Made by a program: the position numbers and the translations under genes. Positions 46,539 through 63,179 of a stretch of DNA of 63,179 bases are shown one piece after another. The DNA lies in assembly GCA_945892765.1 (NCBI GenBank), contig CAMDDQ010000003.1:1-63179 (forward strand). Direction: 5' to 3'. This DNA is from Asaia bogorensis (lineage in GTDB: Bacteria > Pseudomonadota > Alphaproteobacteria > CACIAM-22H2). The notes under the pieces were generated by a model. That model did no database searches. It saw only the letters and a program-made list of their open reading frames with translations, and was not told where the DNA came from. Numbering within the stretch: the first letter of the stretch is position 1; each line of letters opens with the position of its first letter.

Positions 46539-46569
46539 CCGAAGCCTTACGGGGCGGCGGGCAAGCACT

Positions 46570-47292
46570 TCAGCGAACCTCTCCGGCGCGCGCCGGTTCG
46601 GCGGAGGTGAGATCGGCAAGCACGGTTTCGCCGCCGATCACGCGCTGGCCCACAAGGACGAGCGGCGCAACGCCGGTCGGGAGATACAGATCGACGCGGC
46701 TACCGAATCGGATCATGCCATAACGCTGGCCCGAACGAACCGTCTGCCCTTCGGTGAGAGTACACAATATCCGGCGCGCGATCAGCCCCGCAACCTGGAC
46801 AAACGCCAGATCTCGTCCGTCGGCCAGGGCCAGCCGTACGGCCATGCGTTCGTTGGCCTCGCTGGCCTTATCGAGTGAAGCATTGATGAAACGGCCCGGG
46901 CGATAGGCCAAGGTTTTGACGACGCCATCGGCCGGGACACGGTTAACGTGAACGTCGAACGTGCTGAGGAAAATGCCTATGCGCGTGCGTGGTTCGCTCC
47001 CCATCCCGATCTCTTCCGGGGGAGGCGCGGCGGCGACGCTGACGACCCTGCCATCGCCGGGGCTGACGACGAGCCCTGGACGTGTGGGTGTCACCCTTTC
47101 GGGATCGCGAAAGAAATAAACACACCAGCCGGTGACGATCGCCCCGATCCATCCAATGGAGACATCGATCAGCGCCAGCATGATCGTCACCAGGACGGAA
47201 ATGGCGATGAACGGCCACCCTTCGGGATGAACGGGAGCAATCACTAATTTCAAAGTCTGCTGCACGGAAATGGCTGGAAACTCCCTAGTCAT
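46570..47292 (-). CDS. psd: phosphatidylserine decarboxylase proenzyme
   Basis: Short-form Psd with the MIRFGSRVD (G-S cleavage) motif, upstream of pssA. Confidence 0.9.
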   Translation of the reverse strand: MTREFPAISVQQTLKLVIAPVHPEGWPFIAISVLVTIMLALIDVSIGWIGAIVTGWCVYFFRDPERVTPTRPGLVVSPGDGRVVSVAAAPPPEEIGMGSEPRTRIGIFLSTFDVHVNRVPADGVVKTLAYRPGRFINASLDKASEANERMAVRLALADGRDLAFVQVAGLIARRILCTLTEGQTVRSGQRYGMIRFGSRVDLYLPTGVAPLVLVGQRVIGGETVLADLTSAEPARAGEVR

Positions 47293-47343
47293 GGAACGAT
47301 CGTCGGCATGCGGAGCCTAACGACGCAGCTGAAAAAATCCAGG

Positions 47344-48714
47344 TTAGTTGACTTGAGGTACGATGAAGACTTGTCCGGGATATATTATGCTCGGGTCGCG
47401 AATCTGATCGCGGTTGGCCTGATAGATAGTGGTGAAGCGAACACCCTGGCCATAGGATCGGCGGGCGATTCGCCACAAGCTATTTCCAGGCTGAACGATG
47501 ACGCGGCCCTCGCTGGGCAGTTGGAGCGAAAGATCAGCGCGGACAAACGGTACTTCGAGACGCGCAACCACCCTCCCGCCCGGCGAGATCTGATCGACAC
47601 GCAAGGTATGCACACCCGGGTCCACGGGCTCCTGCGGTGTGAGCGTCCAATCGCCCACGATACTACTCTCCGTGCGGCCGACGGGTTGGTTGTCGACATA
47701 GACTTGAACCGATTCGCCAGGAGATGACCGTCCGCCGAAGACTACGTTCCCGGCGTCGTCGTAATCGACCGTGTCGAGATTGAGCACTGGTCCTTGGGCG
47801 TTTGTGGAGGGGGCCGGCTCGACCGGCGGCGCCTGTAGGACAGTGGAACGGCCCGCTCCTTCGCGCGGAGCCAGCAACGCCAATGGAGGAGTTGGCCGCG
47901 CGGCGGCTTCTCCGGCCAGATCCCTTCCCGGTTGCGGCACCGCCAAAACGACGACGTCATCGGAGCGTTGCGCCGGCCGGCCGGGCAATTCGGCCTTCAG
48001 GCTCAACTCGCGGTTGCCAGGCGCGAGGCGTTTGTCAGGCACGCCAACCCACTCTCCACGCGTATCGGCTTTGGCCCGCGCAATCTCGGTTTCGCTGTCA
48101 TACACAGTGACAATCGAGTCGGGTGCGGCACGACCAGCGATGACCGCCTCTCCCAAGGGGCTGACCCGCACGACGTCAAAGGATGGATTGGCTGGAGCGG
48201 GCGGTGCCAGTTGAGGCACCGCCGCGGGAGCCGACGCGGCTGGACTTGCCGGTGGCGTGACAACCGGAGGAGGCGGCGTCGCCGGCTCGGGCAGAGCCGC
48301 CTGGGCCGTCGCGGGCGGCCTGGATGTGGATGTGGTCGGCGGGGTCGGGACGGGTGCAGGCCGCACCTCGGCGCCAAGCGACGGCGGAATTGGTGCGGGC
48401 ACCGCCGCCGGTGGTGGCGTCAGGGCGGGAATAGTGACCGGCGATTGTGTGGCGGGAGCCTGGGTTGCGAAGGCGGGGTTCGTGTCCGGGGGCGGGCCGA
48501 CAACAGGCGGCGCCACAGGCTCCGGCGATGCGCGCGCTGCGGTGGGTGGATCTGCGGTGGCCGTCTCGATCGCGGGAGGCGCAATCCTTCGCGGCGTTTC
48601 GGCCAGCGGCACAGGGCGCCAGTCCTCGTCGCGCAACTGAATCCACGCCAAGATCGTCGCCGCAGCGACAAGAGCGGAGCCTAGTACGACGACGACCAGC
48701 GGTCGGTTGGTCAA
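47344..48714 (-). CDS. LysM peptidoglycan-binding domain protein (Pro/Ala-rich)
   Basis: N-terminal TM helix, long P/A/T-rich low-complexity linker, C-terminal LysM (GNSLWRIARRSYG..YQANRDQIRDPSIIYPGQVFIVP). Confidence 0.85.
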   Translation of the reverse strand: MTNRPLVVVVLGSALVAAATILAWIQLRDEDWRPVPLAETPRRIAPPAIETATADPPTAARASPEPVAPPVVGPPPDTNPAFATQAPATQSPVTIPALTPPPAAVPAPIPPSLGAEVRPAPVPTPPTTSTSRPPATAQAALPEPATPPPPVVTPPASPAASAPAAVPQLAPPAPANPSFDVVRVSPLGEAVIAGRAAPDSIVTVYDSETEIARAKADTRGEWVGVPDKRLAPGNRELSLKAELPGRPAQRSDDVVVLAVPQPGRDLAGEAAARPTPPLALLAPREGAGRSTVLQAPPVEPAPSTNAQGPVLNLDTVDYDDAGNVVFGGRSSPGESVQVYVDNQPVGRTESSIVGDWTLTPQEPVDPGVHTLRVDQISPGGRVVARLEVPFVRADLSLQLPSEGRVIVQPGNSLWRIARRSYGQGVRFTTIYQANRDQIRDPSIIYPGQVFIVPQVN

Positions 48715-48785
48715 CTCAACATCCTCTCACGCCGCCCACGCAATTACGGTAGTACGCAATATCGCGGGGTGCAACGTCCATTGAG

Positions 48786-48822
48786 GAAAAAACAAGCGCG
48801 AAGAGTCTCCCCTTCGCGCTTG
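48786..48822 (-). terminator. rho-independent terminator downstream of the cytochrome pseudogene
   Basis: CAAGCGCGAAG-8 nt-CTTCGCGCTTG stem followed on the minus strand by a T6-7 run (plus-strand GAAAAAA at 48786-48792). Confidence 0.7.
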
Positions 48823-48852
48823 CCCGAAACCGAAGTATCTCTCGAAAAAAAC

Positions 48853-49317
48853 CTATCTGCTCCGGAAAGTCTCGCGGCAACCGCCGCAGGCTTGCTGAGT
48901 GGCGGTGATCTGGGCCTTTAGCGCGTTTTCGTCGGTGCCCTTGGCAGCTACGATCAACTTCGCCGATTCCGCCTCGAACTTTTTCGCGGCGGCCACGAAG
49001 TCATCCCTCTTGGACCAGATTTCGGGCTTGGCACGAGTCTCCGCGCCGGCGTTAGACCCGGCCGGAAAGAGAGAAGGAATCTGCATCCTAACGGCGTTGA
49101 GGGCCGTCGCAAATTCGACAAATCCGCCTTTGAACGTCACGGTGCCCTTGGCGAATTCGCCCATTGCACCCATGTGCGACGTGTTAGCCGTCATCAGCGA
49201 CTTCCGCTATTTGATCACATTGGCCGGTTCATCGGCGGCCTGGACCATGCCCGCGACGCCGGTTAAGCAAAAAGCGAGCCCGGCAATAATCGCCGTCTTA
49301 TTCACACGATACTTCAC
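48853..49317 (-). pseudogene. class II cytochrome c (c556/c'-like) pseudogene: in-frame TAG plus CxxCH-to-CxxCR
   Basis: GTG 49317 with upstream GGAGGAAAG opens a signal peptide, VKYRVNKTAIIAGLAFCLTGVAGMVQAADEPANVIK. TAG at 49209-49207 falls where both paralogues have Tyr (IAYRR / IRYRQ). The frame then continues RKSLMTANTSHMGAMGEFAKG... The C-terminal motif reads CGGCRE instead of CxxCH. Confidence 0.75.
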
Positions 49318-49476
49318 GGTCTTTCCTCCATGGATATTCCGACAGGGCATTCCCAGTCGACTGCACGCAATTTGAACACGTTGCCATCGACACTATTATG
49401 AACACATCGCGACCGAAATTATTCCCAACCAACCAGGGCGGGGGCTCAAATCACAACGTCTTGATCGCGAAAAGGA

Positions 49477-49502
49477 AAGCGGCGAGCCAATAGGCTCGCC
49501 GC
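49477..49502 (-). terminator. rho-independent terminator candidate downstream of cytochrome gene 49554-50042
   Basis: AGCGGCGAGCC-aata-GGCTCGCCGCT, an 11-bp stem followed on the minus strand by TTCCTTTTCG. Confidence 0.65.
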
Positions 49503-49553
49503 TCTGCCAGACCCTCGGCCCGCCACAGCAGGGCCGAGCACTGTCGAAGTTTA

Positions 49554-50042
49554 CTATTTCGCCGCGGGTGGCAGCGGCTTGCGGAAGGGCTGATGGCAGC
49601 CGCCGCAGGCCTGCGCGACCTTTCCGATCTGGTCCTTCATTGCGGCCTCATTGCCGGCCGCGGCCACTTCGGCCAGCTTCGTACCTTCTTCGCCCAGGCG
49701 TTTTGCCGCGGCCAAGAAATCCGCATTTTTCTGCCAAATCTCGGGTTTAGCGTTGGTCCTGCCGGTATCGGTGCCCGCGGGAAACATTCCGGGGAGCTCG
49801 AGGGATGTTCCAACCAACGCGGCCGCGTAGGCTTTGATCGTTTCCTTTGTCACAATCGTGACCTCGCCCTTGGCAAAGGCGTTGAGGGCCGCCAGATAGT
49901 CCGCGTTCCCCTTCATAGCTTCCTGCCGATAGCGAATCATGTCCAGGGGGCGTGCCTGGGCGAACGCCTCGGCCGCGATTCCAGCGGCCGCGAGTGCAAC
50001 GCCACCGATCATCATGCCGATCGCCAAATTGCGTCTCATCAA
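49554..50042 (-). CDS. class II cytochrome c (cytochrome c556/c'-family)
   Basis: Signal peptide, four-helix-bundle-type sequence, single C-terminal heme site ACGGCHQPFR, N-terminal Met candidate ligand (YRQEAMKG). Confidence 0.8.
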   Translation of the reverse strand: MMRRNLAIGMMIGGVALAAAGIAAEAFAQARPLDMIRYRQEAMKGNADYLAALNAFAKGEVTIVTKETIKAYAAALVGTSLELPGMFPAGTDTGRTNAKPEIWQKNADFLAAAKRLGEEGTKLAEVAAAGNEAAMKDQIGKVAQACGGCHQPFRKPLPPAAK

Positions 50043-50103
50043 ACTCCTCCCATCTTCGAATGCGCCAAATATTGAACCAAGCGAGTCGCGGTTACCCGCG
50101 ACA

Positions 50104-51048
50104 TCATCTCGGCCGCTCTATCTTGTGGTCGATCGGGGGCAGCGAAAGGATGTATTTGGACATCGCCGTCCGATCCGCGTCTGTCATCTTGCTTGTGCTT
50201 TCGCGCACGACCTCGGCCATAAGGCCGCCTACGACGTCACCGCCCGGTACCGCGCCAGTCTTCAACATGTAGGCGAAATCGATGTCGTCCCATTCGCCAA
50301 TGCCGGTCGCCTCATGTGGCGTGATATTCGGGGCCATCTCGCCTTCCGGCCCGTCGATCGATCCAGCCATCCACCTGCTGCGATCCATTCCGCCCAACAG
50401 GTTGCGCGGCGTATGGCATTCGGCGCAATGGCCGAGCGCCTCGGTCAGATACGCGCCCCGGTTCCATTCCGCGGATTTCGCGGGATCAGGCTTGTATACG
50501 CCTTCCTTGAAGAAAAGCATTTTCCAGCCGATCTGCAGGAATCGGAGATTGAAGGGGAAGCCGATGTCGTGAGGTTTGTTAGCCTGCGCGACCGGCGGCA
50601 GCGAAAAGATATAGGCCTTCAAATCTTTGATGTCCTGATCGGTCATCAAAGTAAACGACGTGTAGGGGAAGACCGGAAAATAGTGCGATCCGTTGGGCGA
50701 AATGCCCTCGCGCAAGGCGCGGGTGAAGTCGGCATCAGTCCACTTGCCGATGCCGTTCACCGGGTCCGCGGTGATATTGGGGCTGTAGAAGGTTCCAAAG
50801 GGCGTGGGCAGAGCCCGGCCGCCGGCCAGTTGGGCGCCCTTGTTCTTGGTATCGGTGTGGCAGGGCGCGCAATCGGCGGCCCTGAAGACATATTCCCCGC
50901 GCTTGATCGCATCGGCATTGGCCTGCGCCGCGGCCGGCGAGGCCGCCGCGAGCATCCCGCCCGCGATCACGAGCAGGGAGGCGAGGCCATTCAGGAGCAC
51001 GTTCGCCGGGGTGGCGGTCATCGGATCACCGTTTTGCATCGGGCCCAA
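50104..51048 (-). CDS. diheme c-type cytochrome (dehydrogenase cytochrome-c-subunit-like)
   Basis: Signal/TM segment and two CxxCH sites (CAPCH, CAECH). Resembles the cytochrome subunits of membrane-bound dehydrogenases. Confidence 0.8.
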   Translation of the reverse strand: MGPMQNGDPMTATPANVLLNGLASLLVIAGGMLAAASPAAAQANADAIKRGEYVFRAADCAPCHTDTKNKGAQLAGGRALPTPFGTFYSPNITADPVNGIGKWTDADFTRALREGISPNGSHYFPVFPYTSFTLMTDQDIKDLKAYIFSLPPVAQANKPHDIGFPFNLRFLQIGWKMLFFKEGVYKPDPAKSAEWNRGAYLTEALGHCAECHTPRNLLGGMDRSRWMAGSIDGPEGEMAPNITPHEATGIGEWDDIDFAYMLKTGAVPGGDVVGGLMAEVVRESTSKMTDADRTAMSKYILSLPPIDHKIERPR

Positions 51049-51054
51049 CGCGAC

Positions 51055-51546
51055 CTAACGATTAATGCGGAACGGCTCGTGGCAGATCGCGCAGGCGCGG
51101 CTCATGTTTTCGATCTCGCTGGTGAGCACCTGGTTATCACTACCCTTCACCGCGGCCAGCAATTTTTCGCCGGCGCCCACGACCTGGACGACAATCTTGT
51201 TGAACTCGTCGGTTTTCTGCCAAATGGCCGGATCGGCGATGGTGTCGCCGCCCTTTTCCGTGCCCTTTGGGAATACGCTCGGGATTTCCTTGGAGCCCGC
51301 GATGATGGCCTCGGTCCAACCGGCGAAACCCGCCTTGGAGGTTGTCCGCCCCTTCGCGAAGCTCGCCATCGCGTCGAGGTGGTGGCCCATGGCGAGCATC
51401 ACCGCCCGACGATAAGCAATGATTTTCTCCGGCTCGTTGGCCGCGGACGCACTGAAATCGGCGCCGAAAAGCGCCGCCAGGCCAATGCCGCCAATGATCA
51501 AACCCTTGGTAACGCTCCGTCGCATCAATTCCTCCCGTCGTCGCAA
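51055..51546 (-). CDS. class II cytochrome c (cytochrome c556/c'-family)
   Basis: Paralogue of 49554-50042. Signal peptide, AYRRAVMLAMG, C-terminal CAICHEPFR. ATG at 51525 is an alternative start. Confidence 0.8.
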   Translation of the reverse strand: MRRREELMRRSVTKGLIIGGIGLAALFGADFSASAANEPEKIIAYRRAVMLAMGHHLDAMASFAKGRTTSKAGFAGWTEAIIAGSKEIPSVFPKGTEKGGDTIADPAIWQKTDEFNKIVVQVVGAGEKLLAAVKGSDNQVLTSEIENMSRACAICHEPFRINR

Positions 51547-51714
51547 GCCAAATCTACGCTCCCAGACAGGACTTTTTGATCCAGTCTGGTTCGGCGCAAG
51601 TGAAGTCTGTATAGCAGAGCCCTAGGCAGGGTGGAAGCCCCAGCGCCGTGGACTATCCACCGCAGGCGGCGGCACCCGCGCAGGTCGTCATTTTCATGGT
51701 GTAGGACCCCGCAC

Positions 51715-52299
51715 ATGGCCGAAATCCAGTCCTTGTGCGTTTTCTGTGGATCCTCAAATTCAGGGCCAGCGGCGCACCGCGACGCCGCGGCGCAATTTGG
51801 TACGGTGCTCGCGCATTCCGGCATCCACCTGGTCTTTGGCGGCGGCCGCGTCGGCCTCATGGGGGTCGTGGCCGATGCCGCACTGGCGGCCGGCGGGCGT
51901 GTGACCGGGGTCATACCCAAATTCCTGGAGGTCATCGAAGTCGGGCATCCCGGCGCCACGCAATTGCTGGTGGTCGACAACATGCACACGCGAAAACGCA
52001 AGATGTTCGATATGTCCGAGGCGTTCGTTATCCTGCCGGGCGGCCTGGGGACGTTGGACGAGATGTTCGAAGTCTTGACCTGGAAATACCTCGGCCTCCA
52101 CGCCAAGCCGATCGTCATCGCCGATTTCGACGGCTATTGGCAGCCCCTGCTGACGCAAATCTCGAGCCAGATACAAAACGGCTACACCGCGACTGAAGCT
52201 CAAAAAATATTTTCAGTGGTCGAAAGGGTCGAGGATATTCTGCCCGCGATTGAATCTGCGCGCGTCACACTCGCCGCCCCGGCATCCGAACGGCTGTGA
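51715..52299 (+). CDS. LOG family protein (TIGR00730 Rossmann-fold nucleotide hydrolase)
   Basis: [28 protein letters not shown] motifs. ATG at 51715. Confidence 0.85.
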
Positions 52300-52352
52300 G
52301 CCAGGCGGCCCGTGCGGCCGAGACTCTTCGATTCCGCAACGGGAGTACAGAT

Positions 52353-53567
52353 ATGAAAAAGATCAAGGTCGCCAATCCCATCGTCGACGTCGATGGCGAC
52401 GAAATGACGCGCATATTCTGGAAGATGATCAAGGATCGATTGATCCTCCCCTATCTCGACATCGACGTGAAATATTTCGACCTGGGCATTGAAAATCGCG
52501 ATGCCACCGAAGATCGGGTCACGGTCGAAGCCGCCGAGGCGATCCAAAAATACCGGGTCGGCGTGAAATGCGCGACCATTACGCCCGACGAGACACGCGT
52601 GACCGAATTCAAACTCAAAAAGATGTGGAAATCGCCGAACGGCACGATCCGCAACATACTCGACGGCACCGTGTTTCGCGAACCGATCATCTGCAAGAAC
52701 GTCCCGCGCCTTATCACGACCTGGACACAACCCATCGTCATCGGCCGCCACGCTTTCGGCGATCAATATCGCGCCACCGATTTTCGGGTGCCCGGTCCCG
52801 GCAAGCTGACGATGACGTTCACGCCGACCGGCGGCGGCAAACCGGTGCAATACGACGTGTTCGATTTCCCCAGCTCCGGCGTCGCGCTCGGCATGTACAA
52901 TTTGGACGACTCAATTCGCGGCTTCGCCCGCGCCTGCTGCAACTACGCGCTGAACCGCGGCTGGCCGCTCTATCTCTCGACCAAGAACACCATCCTCAAA
53001 GCCTATGACGGACGCTTCAAGGACATCTTCCAAGAGGTGTTCGAAAAGGAATTCACCGGCCCCTTCGCGGCGAAGAAGTTGAGCTACGAACATCGGCTGA
53101 TCGACGACATGGTGGCGACGGCGCTCAAGGTCAGCGGCGGTTTTGTCTGGGCCTGCAAGAATTATGACGGCGACGTGCAATCGGATTCGCTGGCTCAAGG
53201 GTTCGGATCGCTTGGCCTGATGACGTCGGTGCTGCTAACGCCCGACGGCAAGGTAGTGGAGGCGGAGGCCGCCCACGGCACCGTCACGCGCCATTACCGC
53301 GAGCACCAGCAGGGACGCGAGACCTCGACCAACCCGATCGCCTCGATCTTCGCTTGGACGCGGGGGCTCGCCTATCGCGGCGAGTTCGACGGGACGCCCG
53401 AGGTCAAGCGTTTTGCCGACACGCTGGAAAAGGTCTGCATCGACACCGTCGAAGCCGGCGACATGACAAAAGACCTCGCCGTGTTGGTCGGGCCGAAGCA
53501 GAAATGGCTGACGACGCGTCAGTATTTCGACAAGGTCGATGCAAATTTGAAAAAGATCTTGGCGTAA
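52353..53567 (+). CDS. icd: NADP-dependent isocitrate dehydrogenase (homodimeric, eukaryote-like type)
   Basis: [21 protein letters not shown]..., [17 protein letters not shown] and NYDGDVQSD motifs. 404 aa. Confidence 0.95.
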
Positions 53568-53576
53568 GGTGGAATT

Positions 53577-53598
53577 GGGCGGGCCTCTCGGCCCGCCC
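53577..53598. terminator. GC-rich hairpin between convergent icd and alaS (bidirectional terminator candidate)
   Basis: GGGCGGGCC-tctc-GGCCCGCCC, a perfect 9-bp stem lying between the two stop codons. Confidence 0.65.
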
Positions 53599-53606
53599 TA
53601 AGAAAA

Positions 53607-56261
<2,655 letters not shown>

Positions 56262-56491
56262 GGCTTCGTCCTTGAGGAAAACCGCAGGCGCACCCGGAAC
56301 TTGGGGCCCTCAAGGCTCCCGCATCCGTGCGGCCGGTCCGGCATCGCCGTGTTGATGTAGCCTGGGGCCGGAGATGTGTCCAGAAGGCGCTCGGCGGATC
56401 GGACCCGCGCACGCGTAAGGGGTCCCGATTTGTCGCGTGACTTAAGGCCTCGGACGGCGACCGTCCAAGGCCGCGCACGCCGAAAGGAACA

Positions 56492-56515
56492 GGGCCGGGG
56501 GATTGGCCCCGGCCC
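56492..56515 (-). terminator. rho-independent terminator candidate downstream of recA
   Basis: GGGCCGGGG..CCCCGGCCC stem about 10 nt after the recA stop. On the minus strand it is followed by TGTTCCTTTCGG. Confidence 0.6.
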
Positions 56516-56524
56516 CGATTTTGT

Positions 56525-57598
<1,074 letters not shown>

Positions 57599-57651
57599 GA
57601 TGCACCTTTCCTTATTTCACAGGGTTTTAAGTGATGCAACGTAAGGCCAAT

Positions 57652-57666
57652 GTACATGATTTGTTC
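57652..57666. promoter_or_regulatory. candidate alphaproteobacterial SOS (LexA) box upstream of recA: GTAC-N7-GTTC
   Basis: tGTACATGATTTGTTC lies 54-68 nt upstream of the recA ATG. It resembles the GTTC-N7-GTTC direct-repeat LexA motif, with one half-site deviating (GTAC). Confidence 0.5.
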
Positions 57667-57708
57667 AAATATTTTCCCGCCCGGAGGCGGTTGCGTTGAG
57701 ACGGGATT

Positions 57709-57723
57709 GTACACATTTTGTTC
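57709..57723. promoter_or_regulatory. second candidate SOS (LexA) box upstream of recA: GTAC-N7-GTTC
   Basis: tGTACACATTTTGTTC is a near copy of the first box, 57 nt further upstream, in the same AT-rich recA leader. Confidence 0.5.
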
Positions 57724-57761
57724 TCACATACAAGCATTACAAAATTTTGGTTTTAGCCGGC

Positions 57762-58600
57762 CTACCCAAGGGCTTCCTTGACCGCGGTGGCGAGCACCTC
57801 GAGCGTGAAGGGTTTGAGGAGGAAATTCACATTCTTCAGATGCTCCAGGCGCTTACGTAGGGATTCCTCAGCGTAGCCGGAATGCAGATGACCTTGAGTT
57901 TGGGATGGGTTTCACGCGCATTGCGGATCAATGTCGGCCCATCCATCTGCCGCATGACGACATCGGTTACGAGTAGATCGATGCCCGCGCCATGTTGGGC
58001 GAGCAGTTCCAGCGCACCTTCGCCGCTTTCGGCCTCGATCACCCGGTAGCCCTTGTTGCGCAGAGCGCGGACGCTGAACAGGCGCACGACGTCTTCGTCC
58101 TCGACCAACAAAACGGTGCCGACTCCGGTTATATCCTTGGCTGGCGTGGAAACCGGCATGGCCGGTCGGGCGACTTCGGGCGGTGCCGCGTGGCGCGGGA
58201 GAAGGATACTGAAATTAGCCCCCTCGCCCGGCGCGCTCTCGACATAAACGAGCCCACCGGTTTGGCGAACGATGCCGTAGACCGTCGACAGACCGAGCCC
58301 GGTGCCGGAGCCGACCGCCTTGGTCGAAAAGAACGGCTCGAAGATGCGGCCGACGATCTCCTTGGGAATGCCCGTGCCGGTATCCACGACCTCGATCAAC
58401 ACATAATCCCCCGCCGGCACCGATTCGGAGCCCCGTCGCAATGGCTCCGTCACCCTCCGATTGCTGGTGCGGATCGTGAGCGTACCGCCACTGGCCATGG
58501 CGTCGCGGGCGTTAACGGCGAGATTGATGATGACCTGCTCGAATTGGCCTTGGTCGACCTTGATCTGGCCGAGGCTCGCCCCGCCCTTCGCCAGAACGTG
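57762..58600 (-). pseudogene. CckA-like hybrid sensor histidine kinase/response regulator remnant (N-terminal sensor and HisKA missing; 1-nt frameshift near 57880)
   Basis: Only the HATPase_c domain (QFEQVIINLAVNARDAM, DTGTGIP, GTGLGLSTVYGIVRQTGG) and the receiver (VLLVEDED..LLVTDVVM) are present. After KVICI the frame yields PATLRNPYVSAWSI*, whereas a neighbouring frame continues SGYAEESLRKRLEHLKNVNFLLKPFTLEVLATAVKEALG* to TAG at 57764-57762. Confidence 0.75.
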
Positions 58601-59458
58601 GTCGTCGAAGGCGCCACCATTCGCCTCGGCGATCTGTTCGACGATGCCGGCGCCAAGGCCGGCGAGCCGGTGGCCGCCGCCCCCGCCCCCGGACGTAAGA
58701 TTTTGTTCGAGGCAAGTTGGTTGAGTGACATCGCGCGGACCTACCGACTGTCCTGGCGTCCGGCAAGCCGCTATGACCGAACCGTCGTCGAACGCGCGGG
58801 CCGCCGCTTCGACGCGGCCGAGATCACCGGCCGCCTAAGGCTCGCCCTGGTCGCCGCCGGTGCCCCCGGCGATTCTGAAATCGAAATCGCCAACCGCGAT
58901 CTCGAAATGTTCGTCGCCATCGAGGCCCCGGCCACGATCGAGATCCAAAATCTTTCCTTCGATCGCAACACCAGCCGCTTTTCCGCGGTTGCCGCCGTCG
59001 GCGGCGATCATCCGAGCGCGGCGCGCACGGCCGTCAACGGCCGCATTTATCGCACGGCGCAGGTTCCCGTGTTGCGGCGCCCAATCGGCGCCGGCGACGT
59101 CATCGCCAAGTCCGACATTGAAATGGTGAGGATACGGGAGGAACGCCTTCGCCCGGGAACAATCGTCGATGCTTCGGATTTGATTGGTTTCACGCCGTGC
59201 CTGCGCGTGCGGGCCGGAGACCCGGTGCGCGAGGACGAGATCCGTCCACCGATCCTTGTCGCCAAGAACAGCCTGGTGACCATCGTTCTGCGAACCAACA
59301 GTATGATCCTGACGGTTCAAGGCAAGGCGCTCGAAGACGGGGCCAAGAACGACGTCATCCAAGTCATGAACCTGCAAAGCAAGAAGATCCTCGACGGGCA
59401 GGTCGTGGAATCGGGCACCGTCACGGTGGCCGGCCAGTCAATCCTAGCCGCCCAATGA
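58598..59458 (+). CDS. flgA: flagellar basal-body P-ring formation chaperone FlgA, lacking native start and signal peptide
   Basis: VVVEGATIRLGDLFDDAG..AAAPAPGRK.. and the C-terminal SAF/FlgA domain (VLVAKNSLVTIVLRTNSMILTVQGKALEDGAKNDVIQVMNLQSKKIL). No signal peptide: upstream in-frame sequence is antisense to the kinase remnant. GTG 58598 is only a possible surrogate start. Confidence 0.7.
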   Translation: MVVEGATIRLGDLFDDAGAKAGEPVAAAPAPGRKILFEASWLSDIARTYRLSWRPASRYDRTVVERAGRRFDAAEITGRLRLALVAAGAPGDSEIEIANRDLEMFVAIEAPATIEIQNLSFDRNTSRFSAVAAVGGDHPSAARTAVNGRIYRTAQVPVLRRPIGAGDVIAKSDIEMVRIREERLRPGTIVDASDLIGFTPCLRVRAGDPVREDEIRPPILVAKNSLVTIVLRTNSMILTVQGKALEDGAKNDVIQVMNLQSKKILDGQVVESGTVTVAGQSILAAQ

Positions 59459-59502
59459 CCCGCGAATTTTCAGGCCAAGTCCCGGCCCCGAAGGAGACTC
59501 CA

Positions 59503-59947
59503 ATGTCCCGCACCCGCCTTTCCCGTTTGATGTCTCGCGTTTTGATCGCCGTCATGGCCATTGCGCCGGGAGCATGCACGGGCACACTCGACCGCCTCGC
59601 GCAGGTCGGCGACCAACCGCCGTTGACGCGAATTCAGAATCCGCAGGCAGTTCCTGGCTATCAGCCCGTTTCGATGCCGATGCCGCCGCCCTTGCCCAAC
59701 GATCGCGGCAGCAATTCCCTGTGGCGGCCGGGCGCGCGGGCGTTCTTCAAGGATCAACGCGCGAACCAAGTCGGCGATATCGTCACTGTCTTGATCACGA
59801 TGAGCGAGAACGCGTCATTGAGCAACTCCACGGAACGCACGCGGACGAACACCGAGAGCGCGGCGATGCCCAAGCTCCTCGGCTATGAAGGAAAAGAGCT
59901 GCGGAAAGTGCTCCCGGAAGCGCTCGACCCAACGAACCTCATTGGCC
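59503..59947 (+). pseudogene. flgH: flagellar L-ring protein FlgH, 5' fragment (interrupted by IS)
   Basis: AAGGAG RBS at 59491, ATG 59503, signal peptide ending IAPGAC, then SLWRPGARAFFKDQRANQVGDIVTVLI. FlgH similarity stops at the IS left end. Confidence 0.85.
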
Positions 59948-59977
59948 TGCTGCCGGTTTTGTGGACACCGAGTTAGG
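59948..59977. repeat. IS left terminal inverted repeat (TGCTGCCGGTTTTGTGGACACCGAGTTAGG)
   Basis: Matches the reverse complement of 61153-61182 at 20/21 terminal positions and about 24/30 overall. Preceded by the GGCC target duplication at 59944-59947. Confidence 0.85.
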
Positions 59978-60000
59978 TGTTTTGATGGAACCGGAGGTAG

Positions 60001-60294
60001 GTGATGGAGAGACGGAAGTTTACGCGCGAGTTCAAGCTTGAGGCAGTGAAGCTGATCAGGGATCGCGGGGTGGGCTATGCGCAAGCCTCGCGCGATCTGG
60101 GTGTTCATCCGACGGTGCTGCGGAGCTGGGTGAAGGCGCTTGCCGATGACCCACAGCAGGCATTCCCGGGCTACGGTCAGATGAAGCCCGAGCAGGCGGA
60201 GATCGCGCGGCTGAAGCGCGAAGTGATCAAGCTGAAGGCCGAACGGGACATCCTAAAAAAAGCCGCGGCCTACTTCGCGAAGGAATCGATGTGA
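60001..60294 (+). CDS. IS3 family transposase OrfA (HTH)
   Basis: RRKFTREFKLEAVKLI..GVGYAQASRDLGVHPTVLRSWVK plus a leucine-zipper-like tail ending KKAAAYFAKES, the classical IS3 OrfA layout. Confidence 0.9.
   Translation: MMERRKFTREFKLEAVKLIRDRGVGYAQASRDLGVHPTVLRSWVKALADDPQQAFPGYGQMKPEQAEIARLKREVIKLKAERDILKKAAAYFAKESM
60255..60262 (+). promoter_or_regulatory. programmed -1 ribosomal frameshift slippery site (AAAAAAAG) of the IS3 element
   Basis: A7G run near the end of orfA. orfB (60291-61157) is in the -1 frame relative to orfA and overlaps it. Confidence 0.75.
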
Positions 60295-61157
60295 GGTTCG
60301 CCTTCATCGCGAAGCATCGAGGGATATGGCCGGCGGGATGGATGTGCGGGGCGCTCGGTGTCTCGCGGGCTGGCTACCATGCCTGGCTGATACGGCCACG
60401 CAGCCGGCGCAGTCGCGACGACGAGGAACTGGGCACGAAGGTGCGGTCGAGCTTCGTGGCGAGCGATCGGACCTACGGGGCCAGGAGGGTGTGGCACGAC
60501 CTGCTTGCCGAGGGCGTGCCGTGCGGGTTGCATCGGATCGAGCGGCTGATGCGGCGCCAAGCCCTGCGGGCGAGGCCACGCCGACGCCGCCTGCCGTCCG
60601 ACACCGGTGAGCGATCCACCAGCGCCATTGCCGCGAACGTGCTGGACCGTACCTTCGAGGCACCGGCTCCCAACCGCAAATGGATCGCCGACTTCACCTA
60701 TATCTGGACGGCGGAGGGCTGGCTCTACGTGGCGGCCGTGGTCGATCTCTTCTCCCGCCGCGTGGTCGGCTGGTCGATGAGCGCGACCATGACGGCGCAG
60801 CTCGTCACCGACGCCCTCATCATGGCGATCTGGCGGCGGGGCAAGCCCGACGCGCTGCTGCACCACTCCGATCGCGGCAGCCAGTACACCAGCGAACAGT
60901 TCCAGCGCCTGATGGCCGATCACGGCGTCACCTGCTCGATGAGCCGCTCGGGCAACGTCTGGGACAACGCGGCGATGGAGAGCTTCTTCTCTTCATTGAA
61001 GATCGAGCGCACGGCGCGCAAGACCTATCGGACACGGGACGAAGCAAAGGCCGATGTGTTCGATTGCGTCGAACGCTTCTACAATCCGAAACGGCGCCAC
61101 TCGACCATCGGCTATGTCAGTCCAATGGAGTTCGAAATGAAGGCTGAATTAGCTTAA
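60291..61157 (+). CDS. IS3 family transposase OrfB (DDE integrase core; normally made as OrfAB fusion)
   Basis: rve/DDE core: WIADFTYI (D), HHSDRGSQYTS (D), NAAMESFFSSLK (E), and a C-terminal YNPKRRHSTIGYVSPMEFE. Confidence 0.9.
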   Translation: MRFAFIAKHRGIWPAGWMCGALGVSRAGYHAWLIRPRSRRSRDDEELGTKVRSSFVASDRTYGARRVWHDLLAEGVPCGLHRIERLMRRQALRARPRRRRLPSDTGERSTSAIAANVLDRTFEAPAPNRKWIADFTYIWTAEGWLYVAAVVDLFSRRVVGWSMSATMTAQLVTDALIMAIWRRGKPDALLHHSDRGSQYTSEQFQRLMADHGVTCSMSRSGNVWDNAAMESFFSSLKIERTARKTYRTRDEAKADVFDCVERFYNPKRRHSTIGYVSPMEFEMKAELA

Positions 61158-61182
61158 CCTAGTGTCCACGAAACCGGCAGCA
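61153..61182. repeat. IS right terminal inverted repeat
   Basis: Reverse complement TGCTGCCGGTTTCGTGGACACTAGGTTAAG pairs with the left IR. Followed by the GGCC direct repeat at 61183-61186. Confidence 0.85.
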
Positions 61183-61518
61183 GGCCACATCGACCTCAGC
61201 AGCGATTCAGGCAGCAAGGGCACCGGAACCGTCACGCGAAGCGAAGCGCTGACGTTGCGCGTTGCCGCAATCATCACGCAGGTGCTTCCGAACGGCAATT
61301 TGGTCCTCCAGGGACACCAGGAAGTGCGCGTAAATTTCGAAGCGCGCGTGCTGGAACTCAACGGTGTCGTGCGACCGCAGGATATCGCGGCCGCCAACAC
61401 CATTACCTACGACAAGATCGCCGAGGCCCGCATCGGTTATGGCGGCCGCGGACAGCTCACCGACGTCCAGCAGCCGCGTTATGGCCAGCAGGTCCTCGAT
61501 ATTCTCTTCCCGTTCTGA
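61183..61518 (+). pseudogene. flgH: flagellar L-ring protein FlgH, 3' fragment
   Basis: GHIDLSSDSGSKGTGTVTRSEALTLRVAAIITQVLPNGNLVLQGHQEVRVNFEARVLELNGVVRPQDI..IAEARIGYGGRGQL..ILFPF is the conserved FlgH C-terminal core. Confidence 0.85.
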
Positions 61519-61551
61519 CCTGAAGGCTGGGCGGTAGCCGAATACGCGACC

Positions 61552-61573
61552 GCCCGCCGCGCCCAGGGCGGGC
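61552..61573. terminator. hairpin between convergent flgH and dksA
   Basis: GCCCGCC-gcgcccag-GGCGGGC, a 7-bp GC stem with a weak or absent T-tract. Confidence 0.4.
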
Positions 61574-61581
61574 TTCTCGAG

Positions 61582-62001
61582 TTAGTCGTCCCGGTTGGTG
61601 CGTTCGAGGCGTTCGTGCCGTTCCTGAGCCTCGATTGTCATCGTGGCGATCGGGCGGGCCTCGAGGCGGCGCACGTTAATCGGCTCGTCGGTGATCTCGC
61701 AATAGCCATAAGTGCCGTCTTCGATGCGGCGAAGAGCGGAGTCGATCTTGGCGATTAGTTTGCGTTCACGATCCCGAGCGCGGAGTTCGAGGGCCCGGTC
61801 GGTCTCCGCCGAGGCACGGTCGGCAAGATCAGGCGCCGCCACGGTGTCTTCCTGCAGGTGTTGCAAGGTCTCGGTTGAATCGCGCAGCAATTCGGCCCGC
61901 CAGCGCACAAGCTTCTGGCGGAAGTATTCGAGCATCGTCGGATTCATAAACGGCTCGTTGTCGGACGGCCGGTAATTTGGATTGAGAGTTGGCGCCGTCA
62001 T
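61582..62001 (-). CDS. dksA: RNA polymerase-binding transcription factor DksA (zinc-finger cysteines largely absent)
   Basis: Coiled-coil with the acidic tip DRASAETD, and C-terminal GTYGYCEITDEPINVRRLEARP. Only one of the four canonical Cys residues is retained. ATG at 62001. Confidence 0.85.
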   Translation of the reverse strand: MTAPTLNPNYRPSDNEPFMNPTMLEYFRQKLVRWRAELLRDSTETLQHLQEDTVAAPDLADRASAETDRALELRARDRERKLIAKIDSALRRIEDGTYGYCEITDEPINVRRLEARPIATMTIEAQERHERLERTNRDD

Positions 62002-62121
62002 CAACAACCTAGTCTGCTGCTTGGCTTGCGGCGCGCGGAGTATATGAACCGGCTCGGGGTCCATCAAGGCCGTCCGGGATACGGAGCAATCGGTCGCTGC
62101 ACCGGACCGAGCCTTGGAGGA

Positions 62122-62541
62122 CTAGACGTCGCGGTCGAGCTTGGCGAGTTCGACCTGGGCGCGCAAATCAATTTCGTCGAGGATTTCGGCCAAGCGCGGA
62201 TCCGATACGCCAGCTTTTTGGGTGCAAATCACGGTGACGAGTTTGTCGAGACCGGCTGCGGGAATGTCGCCGGCCAGCAACCCCTGCCAAATTTCGTCCA
62301 GCCGATCGAGAATCTCCTCGGCACGGCGGCGGCCCTTGGATTGGGGCGAATCTTCTTCGATACCTTGCAAGGCAACAAGTGCCTCGAGGCCGGATAACGG
62401 CACAGCGGAATTAACGCCAGCGGCGTTGCTCGGACCTTCGAGATGACGGGCGAAGTCGCCGCCCTTGGCCCCGCCGGATTTCTCGGTGCGGCGGGCCGCG
62501 GAGGAGCGGACTGGCGCTTTGGGATCAATCTTCATAGCCAT
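62122..62541 (-). CDS. fliX: flagellar assembly regulator FliX
   Basis: 139 aa. MKIDPK..., a basic/Gly-rich N-terminus and a C-terminal DPRLAEILDEIDLRAQVELAKL. Divergent from flgI, the arrangement known from Caulobacter-type clusters. Confidence 0.75.
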   Translation of the reverse strand: MAMKIDPKAPVRSSAARRTEKSGGAKGGDFARHLEGPSNAAGVNSAVPLSGLEALVALQGIEEDSPQSKGRRRAEEILDRLDEIWQGLLAGDIPAAGLDKLVTVICTQKAGVSDPRLAEILDEIDLRAQVELAKLDRDV

Positions 62542-62823
62542 GGGTTCGACGTCATCCTACCATAAGCTTGGATGCGGCTGCTTTGTTGACCATAGGGCAG
62601 ATGACGCAATCCCGTCACTGGGCAGTATTTGCCGCCGGCTCGGCAAGGTCGGTTCGGACCATTGGCGATTTCAGCGCCGACGGCGCCGGTCCCCAAAAAA
62701 TATTGTTTAATATCAATGTGCTATTGGACTTTCACAGGTGGCATGGCTCTCTCATATCTGGGAACGCACGCTGACCATTTCGGCAGGACGCCGCAACCGC
62801 TACCCGATCGAGGAACGAAGGTC

Positions 62824-63018
62824 ATGGTCCAACCCTGGAAAAACAAAAGGATGTTCGCCGCAGCGGTAGTTGGGCTCACGGCGATCTTCGGGACTTGCGC
62901 CGCGTCGGCCGCTTCGCGAATCAAGGACATCGCGGATTTTCAGGGCGTCCGCACGAATCAACTCATCGGTTACGGTCTGGTCGTCGGTCTGAACGGTGTC
63001 CGTCGTCAATGGATTTGA
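62824..63018 (+). pseudogene. flgI: flagellar P-ring protein FlgI, N-terminal ~58-codon fragment
   Basis: Signal peptide, then [28 protein letters not shown], the conserved FlgI N-terminus. The expected TGD... is replaced by VRRQWI* from about 62997. Confidence 0.8.
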
Positions 63019-63071
63019 GACAACGGGCGCGCTGAGTTAACGGAGGCTGCGGCTCATCTGGTGGGTTGATC

Positions 63072-63179
63072 TTATGCCGCTTGATCGCGATGGATCAAGC
63101 GGCGCTGCTGGATGGTCTGTCGTTTGATTCGGTTGCGTTCGAGCAGGATGGTTTGGGCCCTGCCGAGATAGACGTCGGC
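63072..63179 (-). other. 3' end of an unidentified ORF entering from beyond the right window edge
   Basis: Open frame ..ADVYLGRAQTILLERNRIKRQTIQQRRLIHRDQAA* ending at TAA 63074-63072. The opposite strand is also open (MDQAALLDGLSFDS..), so both strand and identity are unresolved. Confidence 0.25.

What the first reader, a model, noticed from the sequence alone, without database searches (positions are those of the whole stretch)
59503..61518. flgH is split by an intact IS3-family element; in-silico excision restores the reading frame
FlgH similarity runs from ATG 59503 to ..DPTNLIG at 59947 and resumes at 61187 (HIDLSSDSGSKGTG..VLPNGNLVLQGHQEVRVN..). The intervening 1,235 bp has TG..CA ends, terminal inverted repeats matching at 20/21 positions, and a direct GGCC on both sides (59944-47 and 61183-86). 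It also has uninterrupted orfA and orfB frames with an A7G slippery site. Removing the element plus one GGCC copy (1,239 nt, or 413 codons) joins the two halves in frame. The clean target duplication and undecayed transposase suggest a recent, possibly still active, insertion that knocks out the L-ring protein.
Basis: seen in the sequence. Interest (0 to 1): 0.65.

Follow-up and report, generated by a model that had tools for sequence, protein, structure and literature searches.

The report
IS3-family insertion splitting flgH
A common "jumping gene" of the IS3 family has landed in the flagellar L-ring gene flgH of an uncultured freshwater alphaproteobacterium.

Summary
The split flgH and the inserted IS3-family element are real. 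Independent short-read assemblies and Logan contigs from runs of three studies reproduce both junctions at 99.99-100% identity.

The boundaries need correcting:
- The element is 1,245 bp (59943-61187), not 1,235 bp.
- Its ends are TGGCC...GGCCA.
- The true target-site duplication is the 3-bp CAT (59940-42 and 61188-90).

Four lines of evidence support this:
- A close relative has the uninterrupted site, ...AACCT-CAT-CGACC..., and its protein reads DPTNLIDLNSDSG.
- All 36 related elements examined carry the extra 5 bp at each end.
- Other copies of this element diverge from the window exactly after 61187.

The corrected FlgH is 255 aa. A 3-bp duplication argues against the IS407 subgroup.

The element looks active. 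It has intact orfA and orfB, an in-frame A_AAA_AAA heptamer, a predicted 384-aa OrfAB, a DD(35)E triad and at least three other insertion sites. flgH carries no other lesion, and its differences from the relative are mostly synonymous, so the insertion is recent. flgI, 1.5 kb downstream, is cut by a second IS3-family element.

This is an ordinary kind of event and of low interest.

The parts
58550..59458 (+). flgA (P-ring assembly chaperone, 302 aa), the gene upstream of flgH
   Evidence: Pfam ChapFlgA and SAF match the C-terminal part of ORF 57992-59458. The independent assembly L205 calls a 302-aa gene here. tblastn similarity to relatives' FlgA starts at about 58586.
59503..59942 (+). flgH 5' fragment. 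It holds native codons 1-146 plus the first two bases of Ile147. The truncated ORF reads on into the element (tail GLLPVLWTPS) and stops at 59974-59976, giving 157 aa.
   Evidence: L205 calls a 157-aa FlgH-domain product.
59940..59942 (.). Left copy of the 3-bp target-site duplication, CAT
   Evidence: The uninterrupted allele in X3, X4 and X6 reads AACCT-CAT-CGACC with a single CAT. Relatives of the element have 3-bp duplications at the equivalent position.
59943..61187 (+). IS3-family insertion sequence, 1,245 bp, ends TGGCC...GGCCA
   Evidence: The ends are shared by 4 plasmid and 32 metagenome relatives. Other copies diverge from the window exactly after 61187. Empty-site contigs join 59942 to 61188.
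59943..59968 (+). Left terminal inverted repeat (IRL), TGGCCTGCTGCCGGTTTTGTGGACAC
   Evidence: It matches the reverse complement of 61162-61187 at 25 of 26 positions.
60004..60294 (+). orfA (96 aa from the ATG; a GTG at 60001 is an alternative start). It is the HTH DNA-binding protein of the IS.
   Evidence: Pfam HTH_Tnp_1, 61 bits. L205 calls a 96-aa product.
60255..60261 (+). Slippery heptamer A_AAA_AAA in the orfA frame (CTA AAA AAA G), the site of the programmed -1 frameshift
   Evidence: All four plasmid relatives carry A_AAA_AAG at the same position and in the same frame, and 24 of 32 full-length relatives carry an A6G run there. The window differs by a synonymous AAG>AAA change.
60261..61157 (+). 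orfB frame (-1 relative to orfA), encoding the DDE/rve catalytic domain. The stand-alone ORF runs from GTG 60291. The OrfAB fusion is predicted to be 384 aa.
   Evidence: Pfam rve, HTH_21, rve_2 and rve_3, and NF033516 at 345 bits. DDE residues are D134, D194 and E230 in OrfB numbering, and the fusion is 384 aa. Annotated fused forms in the database are also 384 aa.
61162..61187 (-). Right terminal inverted repeat (IRR)
61188..61190 (.). Right copy of the target-site duplication, CAT
61191..61518 (+). flgH 3' fragment: last base of the Ile147 codon, codons 148-255 and the stop. It has no start codon or signal peptide of its own. A GTG at 61162 inside IRR opens a 118-aa ORF.
   Evidence: tblastn with relatives' FlgH is colinear: residues 30-150 map left of the element and 148-256 map right.
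61582..62067 (-). dksA-like gene, convergent with flgH. flgH is therefore the last gene of its transcription unit and the insertion has no downstream gene to affect.
   Evidence: Pfam DksA_N and zf-dskA_traR. The synteny is conserved in 53 of 80 related loci.
62122..62541 (-). fliX (class II flagellar assembly regulator), intact
   Evidence: Pfam FliX, 114 bits. An identical protein occurs in 5 independent contigs.
62824..62996 (+). flgI 5' fragment (P-ring protein, about 57 native codons ending ..[10 protein letters not shown]), cut by a second IS
   Evidence: L206 and L207 call a 64-aa FlgI-domain product.
62997..63179 (-). Terminus of a second, different IS3-family element, with its transposase on the - strand. 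The window ends inside it.
   Evidence: It is 69-77% identical to 134 plasmid records, annotated 'IS3 family transposase' where any feature is listed. Logan unitigs end exactly at 62997 in four runs. ENA contigs cross this junction at 99.9-100%.

Best explanation
A 1,245-bp IS3-family insertion sequence (59943-61187) transposed into codon 147 of the chromosomal L-ring gene flgH of an uncultured freshwater alphaproteobacterium, duplicating the 3-bp target CAT.

Shown from sequence:
- Ends TGGCC...GGCCA, with 25/26 inverted repeats.
- orfA (HTH) and orfB (DDE) in the 0 and -1 frames.
- An in-frame A_AAA_AAA heptamer.
- A predicted 384-aa OrfAB transposase with an intact DD(35)E triad.
- Several other insertion sites of the identical element in the same communities.

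Inferred from what is established for the IS3 family (IS911, IS2, IS3):
- OrfAB is made by programmed -1 ribosomal frameshifting.
- The element moves by copy-out-paste-in through a circular intermediate, and integration produces the 3-bp duplication.

Consequence (inferred). The gene now encodes a 157-aa product made of 147 native residues plus a 10-residue IS-encoded tail. It lacks residues 148-255, the most conserved part of FlgH, which aligns with the solved L-ring subunit. The 3' fragment has no signal peptide. No L ring can form. There is no polar effect, because the next gene (dksA) is convergent.

Timing. flgH has no other lesion, the duplication is perfect, and the differences from a 96%-identical relative are mostly synonymous. 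The insertion is therefore recent relative to that split. It is nevertheless established in the population, since it appears in runs of three studies.

flgI, 1.5 kb away, is also cut by a second IS3-family element. The lineage has therefore most likely lost, or is losing, flagellar function.
For: Family assignment:
- NF033516 at 345 bits against a cutoff of 160; Pfam HTH_Tnp_1 and rve.
- OrfAB of 384 aa, and D134/D194/E230 with 35 residues between the second D and the E.
- The heptamer sits at the same position and in the same frame as the A_AAA_AAG of relatives.

Boundaries and duplication:
- Contigs of 352, 372 and 295 bp in X3, X4 and X6 match 59883-59942 and continue directly at 61188, sharing a single CAT.
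- P0121, on a syntenic 28.9-kb contig and 96% identical, reads DPTNLIDLNSDSG.
- All 4 plasmid and 32 metagenome relatives end TG[G/A][G/C]C...G[C/G][T/C]CA. Three-bp duplications flank 3 of 4 plasmid copies and 5 of 26 metagenome copies, against 1/64 expected by chance.
- Contigs of other copies leave the window sequence exactly after 61187.

Reality of the junctions.

Multiple copies:
- The 100%-identical unitig 60962-61187 has depth 27 against 7.4-8.2 for the flanks in X1, and 20.8 against 4.2-5 in X2.
- Three different foreign flanks are seen.

Recency:
- The corrected ORF is open and full length.
- It differs from P0121 at 10 of 238 residues.
- 14 of 17 listed nucleotide differences in the 5' half and 26 of 33 in the 3' half fall at codon position 3.

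Structure: the query aligns to solved L-ring FlgH chains (7BGL, 7CBL, 9YDO) over residues 51-247.

Transcription unit: flgA-flgH followed by a convergent dksA is the conserved arrangement.
Against: - Transposition activity, frameshifting and the non-flagellate phenotype are inferred, not measured.
- The window's heptamer is A_AAA_AAA rather than the lineage's usual A_AAA_AAG. This could change frameshift efficiency.
- The predicted hairpin downstream of the heptamer is no better than shuffled controls (z = -0.96).
- Twenty-one of 26 metagenome relatives show no 3-bp duplication. I attribute this to chimeric flank joining in short-read assemblies or to recombination between copies, but did not test it.
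- The copy-number estimate comes from community depth, and other hosts could contribute.
- Only this one locus of the genome is visible. A second flagellar system or a second flgH cannot be excluded.
- No promoter-like site was found in the element by the simple scan.
Confidence: 0.93

Rival explanations
1. One reading: a 1,235-bp element (59948-61182) with a 4-bp GGCC target duplication, typical of the IS407 subgroup, whose excision gives a 258-aa FlgH.
For: GGCC does flank the TG..CA core on both sides, and removing 1,239 nt keeps the frame. The 258-aa product still passes the FlgH equivalog cutoff.
Against: - GGCC is its own reverse complement and extends the inverted repeat to TGGCC/GGCCA.
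- All 36 relatives carry these 5 bases at both ends. The outer bases covary as TGAGC/GCTCA in two relatives, which a target duplication would not do.
- The empty site in relatives lacks GGCC.
- Homologues lack the IGH residues.
- Other copies of the element keep GGCCA before diverging.
Confidence: 0.02
2. Assembly artefact: a repeated IS was wrongly placed between two halves of an actually intact flgH.
For: The element is multi-copy. The short-read contigs break inside it (L205 ends at 60706 and L206 starts at 61047), so no short-read contig spans the whole element.
Against: - Both junctions are reproduced with 0-2 mismatches in independent assemblies and in runs of three studies.
- The two junctions carry matching CAT duplications and the correct left and right ends in one orientation, as expected of a simple insertion.
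- No contig at 99% or higher identity joins 59942 to 61188 in X1, X2, X5 or X10. Logan contigs can, however, drop rare variants.
Confidence: 0.02
3. Reversible switch: the insertion acts as a phase-variation device, and precise excision between the CAT repeats restores flgH and motility when needed.
For: Precise removal of the element plus one CAT would regenerate a perfect 255-aa ORF. The element appears active.
Against: - Copy-out-paste-in leaves the donor copy in place (established for the IS3 family).
- Precise excision across a 3-bp repeat is expected to be very rare.
- No empty-site contig was seen at 99% or higher identity.
- flgI is independently disrupted, so restoring flgH alone would not restore the LP rings.
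Confidence: 0.03

Closest known systems
IS3-family insertion sequences that make 3-bp target duplications (IS3, IS51 and IS150 subgroups, for example IS911, IS3, IS629)
   Same: - Length about 1.25 kb, with TG...CA termini and imperfect terminal inverted repeats.
- orfA (HTH) and orfB (DDE, rve) in the 0 and -1 frames.
- An A-rich slippery heptamer in the overlap.
- A DD(35)E triad and a 3-bp target duplication.
   Different: - No close named relative was found. The nearest full-length DNA copies in PLSDB plasmids and in the 120 metagenome contigs returned were 77% identical or less, and the best OrfB match was 89% identical at the protein level.
- The heptamer is A_AAA_AAA rather than A_AAA_AAG.
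- The subgroup within the 3-bp set could not be assigned, because ISfinder was not available. My recollection that the inverted repeat resembles those of the IS51 group is a lead from memory, not a test.
IS407 subgroup of the IS3 family
   Same: Similar size (about 1.2 kb), the two-frame organisation and TG..CA ends.
   Different: The subgroup's defining 4-bp duplication (PMC10045372) is not met. The duplication here is 3 bp.
IS-mediated inactivation of flagellar genes in lineages that are losing motility (for example Shigella, Aeromonas salmonicida, Brucella; papers listed)
   Same: Insertion sequences disrupt structural flagellar genes in a lineage that carries more than one such lesion.
   Different: Here the host is an uncultured free-living freshwater alphaproteobacterium rather than a host-restricted pathogen. 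Only one flagellar locus is visible, so the extent of the decay is unknown.

Membership tests
IS3 family | Transposase matches the curated IS3 model above its cutoff | tested here: met
   OrfB scores 345 bits against NF033516 (cutoff 160), covering profile positions 90-369. OrfA covers positions 1-86.
IS3 family | Two consecutive, partly overlapping ORFs in relative frames 0 and -1, with an HTH domain in OrfA and an rve/DDE domain in OrfB | tested here: met
   orfA lies at 60004-60294 and orfB at 60291-61157, offset by 2 modulo 3. Pfam finds HTH_Tnp_1 and rve.
IS3 family | Slippery heptamer of the A_AAA_AAG type in the orfA frame within the overlap, giving an OrfAB fusion | tested here: met
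   The orfA frame reads CTA AAA AAA G at 60253-60262. The predicted fusion is 384 aa, the same length as annotated fused relatives. Frameshifting itself was not assayed.
IS3 family | DD(35)E catalytic triad | tested here: met
   D134 (DFT), D194 (SDRG) and E230 (DNAAME) in OrfB, with 35 residues between the second D and the E.
IS3 family | Terminal inverted repeats ending 5'-TG...CA-3' | tested here: met
   The ends are TGGCCTGCTGCC...GGCAGCAGGCCA, with a 25/26 match.
IS3 family | Short target-site duplication of 3-5 bp | tested here: met
   CAT lies at 59940-42 and 61188-90. The empty site carries a single CAT.
IS3 family | Copy-out-paste-in transposition through a circular intermediate | not testable with these tools
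   This would need circle-junction reads or an experiment. Multiple insertion sites of identical copies are compatible with replicative spread.
IS407 subgroup | 4-bp target-site duplication (PMC10045372) | tested here: not met
   The duplication is 3 bp. The apparent GGCC belongs to the inverted repeats.
FlgH (flagellar L-ring protein) | The joined flanks match the FlgH equivalog or Pfam model end to end, without loss or gain at the junction | tested here: met
The corrected 255-aa join aligns without a gap to P0121 (96% identical) and to 12 homologues.
FlgH (flagellar L-ring protein) | Lipoprotein signal peptide with a lipobox cysteine | tested here: inconclusive
   The N-terminus is MSRTRLSRLMSRVLIAVMAIAPGAC. 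Its Cys aligns with the Cys in the ..[GA]C motif of homologues. No signal-peptide predictor was available.
FlgH (flagellar L-ring protein) | Flagellar gene neighbourhood | tested here: met
   The order flgA-flgH, then convergent dksA, then fliX divergent from flgI, recurs in related loci. Of 80 loci, 76 have flgA, 53 dksA, 46 fliX and 43 flgI.

The most novel reading that the evidence does not exclude
The flgH insertion may be one of several independent, recent lesions that remove the flagellar LP-ring genes in a clade of freshwater alphaproteobacteria.
- In the window's population, flgH is cut by one IS and flgI by another.
- In a sister population (96% FlgH identity), about 1 kb carrying flgA and the first 17 codons of flgH (its signal peptide) is missing.
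- Yet the coding sequences differ mostly at synonymous sites.

That pattern would indicate ongoing, possibly selected, parallel loss of flagellar motility in a free-living planktonic lineage, with IS elements as the main mutagen. Possible drivers are cost saving or escape from flagellum-dependent phages or grazers.
Probability: 0.3. Interest if true: 0.4.

Novelty: new member of a known kind. Interest (0 to 1): 0.2.

Why it matters
For annotation, flgH and flgI here should be recorded as IS-disrupted pseudogenes. The element should be recorded as a 1,245-bp IS3-family IS with a 3-bp duplication, not as an IS407-type element.

For method, this is a clean example of a palindromic tetranucleotide at the tip of an inverted repeat being mistaken for a target duplication. 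'Frame restored' does not distinguish two parses that differ by a multiple of 3. An empty site, or the ends of sister elements, is needed.

For biology, the locus suggests that a free-living freshwater alphaproteobacterial lineage is shedding flagellar ring genes through IS activity. That is a familiar process in host-restricted pathogens and is only modestly surprising here.

Tried and rejected
- Exact look-ups of the window's OrfB and DksA in the gene index found nothing. RecA and FliX did work.
- The genome-contig scan with FlgH gave only relatives of about 60% identity or less, so neither the source genome nor a close species representative was found.
- The DNA of the P0121 contig, the close relative, is not held. 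The relative's flgA-less layout therefore rests on gene coordinates plus Logan contigs.
- I tried to assign an IS3 subgroup three ways. A full-text search for the inverted-repeat sequence returned only unrelated eukaryotic papers. A distant blastn search of E. coli genomes gave short 65-82% matches, plus one 39-bp match at 92%, to generically named IS3-family transposases. The names attached to the protein hits were only 'IS3 family transposase' or 'putative transposase'. The subgroup is left open.
- The RNA fold downstream of the heptamer shows a hairpin, but it is not better than shuffles (z = -0.96), so I make no claim of a frameshift stimulator.
- The promoter scan found no sigma-70-like site in or around the element.
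- The window holds no second copy of the element, and no long repeat of any kind.
- The joints reported at 59762>61279 and 58872>59593 have only 20-21 matching letters on one side, and I treated them as spurious.
Full report
**1. The observation**

- An ORF starts at ATG 59503 and carries FlgH-like sequence up to ..DPTNLIG.
- A block follows with two ORFs: 60001/60004-60294, and 60291-61157 in the -1 frame.
- FlgH-like sequence then resumes and runs to the stop at 61518.

Pfam and NCBIfam identify the pieces.
- The joined flanks are FlgH. They score 302 bits against NF001305 (cutoff 255) over 5-239 of 239 profile positions.
- orfA is HTH_Tnp_1.
- orfB is rve, and scores 345 bits against NF033516 transpos_IS3 (cutoff 160).

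The 21-mer TGCTGCCGGTTTYGTGGACAC occurs exactly twice in the window, in inverted orientation at 59948 and 61182, with none expected by chance. GGCC flanks it on both sides, and deleting 1,239 nt leaves an open frame.

**2. The junctions are real**

Several independent sources reproduce the junctions.
- An ENA MEGAHIT contig (ERZ27280297 k141_416635, 31 kb) matches window 46525-60706 with 2 mismatches in 14,182. It carries recA, flgA, the 157-aa FlgH stump, orfA and part of orfB.
- A second contig of that assembly (k141_1719539) equals window 61047-63171 at 100%.
- Logan contigs give the same junctions with 0-1 mismatches. The runs are X1, X2 and X5 (study P1), X3 (P2) and X6 (P3), all lake or freshwater metagenomes.

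No short-read contig bridges the whole element, as expected for a repeat. However, the two junctions have the correct ends, the same orientation and matching duplications.

**3. The boundaries are 5 bp further out, and the duplication is CAT**

The homologues read DPTNL-[V/I/L/F]-x. That prompted a search for an uninterrupted allele.

*The uninterrupted allele.* I laid Logan contigs on each flank separately at 80% likeness.
- In X3, X4 and X6, a single contig (352, 372 and 295 bp; depths 12, 18 and 6) matches 59883-59942 (59863-59942 in X4).
- It then continues directly at 61188. The three bases CAT fit both 59940-42 and 61188-90.
- The relative's sequence is ...GACCCGACGAACCT CAT CGACCTCAACAGCGATTCC..., which translates to DPTNLIDLNSDS.

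A protein search with the corrected 255-aa join then found P0121. It is 96% identical and lies on a 28.9-kb ENA contig with the same gene order: cytochromes c', icd, alaS, recA, a kinase fragment, flgH, dksA, fliX. It reads ...EALDPTNLIDLNSDSGSKG....

*The corrected parse.* The target was ..CTCAT|CGAC... The duplication is CAT. The element is 59943-61187 (1,245 bp), with ends TGGCC...GGCCA and an inverted repeat matching at 25 of 26 positions. GGCC is its own reverse complement, so the same four bases can be read as a direct or as an inverted repeat.

*Three further tests agree.*
- Four 77%-identical full-length relatives on Bradyrhizobium, Xanthobacter and Methylovirgula plasmids carry TGAGC...GCTCA or TGGCC...GGCCA outside the TGCTGCC core. 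These outer bases covary between the two ends. Three of the four are flanked by 3-bp duplications: CGG, AAA and ACC.
- A metagenome scan with the 26-nt end returned the 120-locus limit. All 32 full-length copies had TGGCC/GGCCA at the end the pattern did not force. Five of 26 testable copies had a 3-bp duplication, against 0.4 expected by chance. The 21 without one are a caveat. I attribute them to flank mixing in short-read assemblies or to recombination between copies.
- In X1 and X5, contigs of other copies of the identical element follow the window up to exactly 61187 and then run into three different flanks.

Both 1,239 and 1,248 are multiples of three, so frame restoration could not distinguish the two parses.

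**4. What the element is**

All testable defining features of the IS3 family are met; the membership table lists them.
- A -1 shift at the in-frame heptamer A_AAA_AAA (60255-60261; 0-frame CTA AAA AAA G) gives a 384-aa OrfAB. Annotated fused relatives in the database have the same length.
- The DDE residues are D134, D194 and E230 in OrfB numbering, with 35 residues between the second D and the E.
- Relatives carry CTA AAA AAG at the same place. The window's A7G therefore arose by a synonymous G>A change, not by an extra base. From my own knowledge, AAG in the second codon is what makes the motif most shifty in E. coli, so the efficiency here may differ. This was not tested.
- The downstream hairpin is not significant.

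The OrfB lineage is very abundant. Of the 8,000 candidates scored, 7,984 had E-values of 1e-40 or better, and the best full-length matches were 85-89% identical. At the DNA level, nothing above 77% identity was found in plasmids or in the metagenome contigs returned. It is therefore probably an unnamed member of a common clade.

According to PMC10045372, 4-bp duplications mark the IS407 subgroup, 5-bp duplications mark the IS2 subgroup, and 3-bp duplications mark the rest. The corrected 3-bp duplication argues against IS407. I could not narrow the subgroup further.

**5. Activity and age**

- The 100%-identical unitig 60962-61187 has 3-5 times the depth of the unique flanks in X1 and X2. At least three other insertion sites are visible. 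Both point to recent transposition, although other hosts in the community could contribute to the depth.
- flgH has no lesion other than the insertion.
- The corrected protein differs from P0121 at 10 of 238 residues, all conservative.
- 14 of 17 listed nucleotide differences in the 5' half, and 26 of 33 in the 3' half, fall at third codon positions.

Both halves, including the part downstream of the element, therefore evolved under purifying selection for nearly all of the time since the split from the relative. The insertion is young on that scale. It is not a one-off, however, because the IS-bearing junction appears in runs of three studies and in three ENA assemblies.

**6. Consequence**

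- The 5' fragment encodes residues 1-147 plus the tail GLLPVLWTPS, 157 aa in all. The independent assembly calls the same product.
- The 3' fragment (residues 148-255) is the best-conserved part of FlgH. It aligns to the solved L-ring subunit in 9YDO, 7BGL and 7CBL, and it has no signal peptide.
- dksA is convergent, so flgH is the last gene of its unit and no polar effect is expected.
- Loss of the L ring, and hence of external flagellum assembly, is inferred from established knowledge of flgH mutants in enteric bacteria. It was not tested here.

**7. Context found on the way**

*The window.* It is core chromosome, carrying radA, purF, der, bamB, parC, recO, era, lepB, spoT, rpoZ, smpB, alaS and recA. 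GC content is 62%, and the element's is 63.5%.

*flgI is also disrupted.*
- It starts at 62824 and is cut after ..[10 protein letters not shown] at 62996 by the end of a second, different IS3-family element, which runs to the end of the window.
- Two ENA contigs cross that junction at 99.9-100%.
- Logan unitigs stop exactly at 62997.

Both the L-ring and the P-ring genes are therefore disrupted.

*The relative has its own lesion.*
- In the relative that has the uninterrupted target site, similarity to the window is lost between 58490 and 59553.
- Its contig has only 75 bp between the kinase fragment and a flgH that begins at MAIAPGAC.
- flgA and the first 17 codons of flgH, which encode the signal peptide, therefore appear to be deleted there.
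- flgA-flgH adjacency is conserved in 76 of 80 distant loci, so the window's arrangement is the ancestral one.

This suggests independent lesions of the LP-ring locus in two sister populations. I give that reading as the 'novel case' rather than as a conclusion, because only one flagellar locus is visible.

**8. Verdict**

This is a genuine, recent insertion of an apparently active IS3-family element into flgH. It is ordinary in kind. The element length, the termini, the target duplication and the restored protein have been corrected, and a second IS hit in flgI has been added. Interest is low (0.2). In novelty terms it is a new member of a known kind.

Noticed in passing
window 62824-63179: flgI (P-ring protein) is cut after about 57 codons (..[10 protein letters not shown], last native base 62996) by the terminus of a second, different IS3-family element. 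That element's transposase lies on the - strand, and the window ends inside it. ENA contigs L206 and L207 cross this junction at 99.9-100%, and Logan unitigs end exactly at 62997.
   Followed up: yes
window 58490-59553, compared with the P0121 contig and X3/X4/X6 contigs: The close relative that has the uninterrupted IS target site lacks about 1 kb present in the window. The missing stretch holds flgA and the first 17 codons of flgH (the signal peptide). Only 75 bp separate the kinase fragment from a flgH that starts at MAIAPGAC. This looks like an independent lesion of the same locus in a sister population. The relative's DNA is not held, so the deletion end points were not seen.
   Followed up: partly
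window 57836-58498 (- strand): A 220-aa ORF consists only of the C-terminal part of a HATPase_c domain (profile positions 35-109) plus a truncated receiver domain (1-84 of 111). It lies between recA and flgA and looks like a remnant of a hybrid histidine kinase. The relative has the same fragment with a 51-bp in-frame deletion (58013>58065).
   Followed up: partly
window 1-1066 (+ strand): A cyclopropane-fatty-acid synthase (CMAS) gene appears frameshifted near nt 130-160. The N-terminal part reads in frame 1 (..LHVGEAYMDGHLTVEHGSLYDFVDLIMSN..) and the rest in frame 2 (..AAHHYDLSGKLYDLFLDADRQYSCAYF..). This could be a pseudogene or a sequencing error.
   Followed up: no
window 48853-51546 (- strand): A cluster of three cytochrome c' (Cytochrom_C_2) paralogues sits next to a dihaem-type c cytochrome. 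The relative's contig conserves the cluster, with four such genes.
   Followed up: no
window 57599-58550 and the related loci L001-L080: In distant relatives, other genes precede flgA that have no counterpart in the window. Here recA and the kinase fragment abut flgA. The flgA-flgH / fliX-flgI block is therefore detached from any other flagellar genes in this genome.
   Followed up: partly
L085-L204 (metagenome contigs) and P0001-P0120: The element's lineage is extremely common in environmental data. More than 120 contigs carry the exact 26-nt terminus, and the scan stopped at its limit. Thousands of OrfB homologues score E-values of 1e-40 or better. Sizes cluster at 1,239, 1,241 and 1,245 bp, with a few at 1,277-1,280 bp.
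   Followed up: partly
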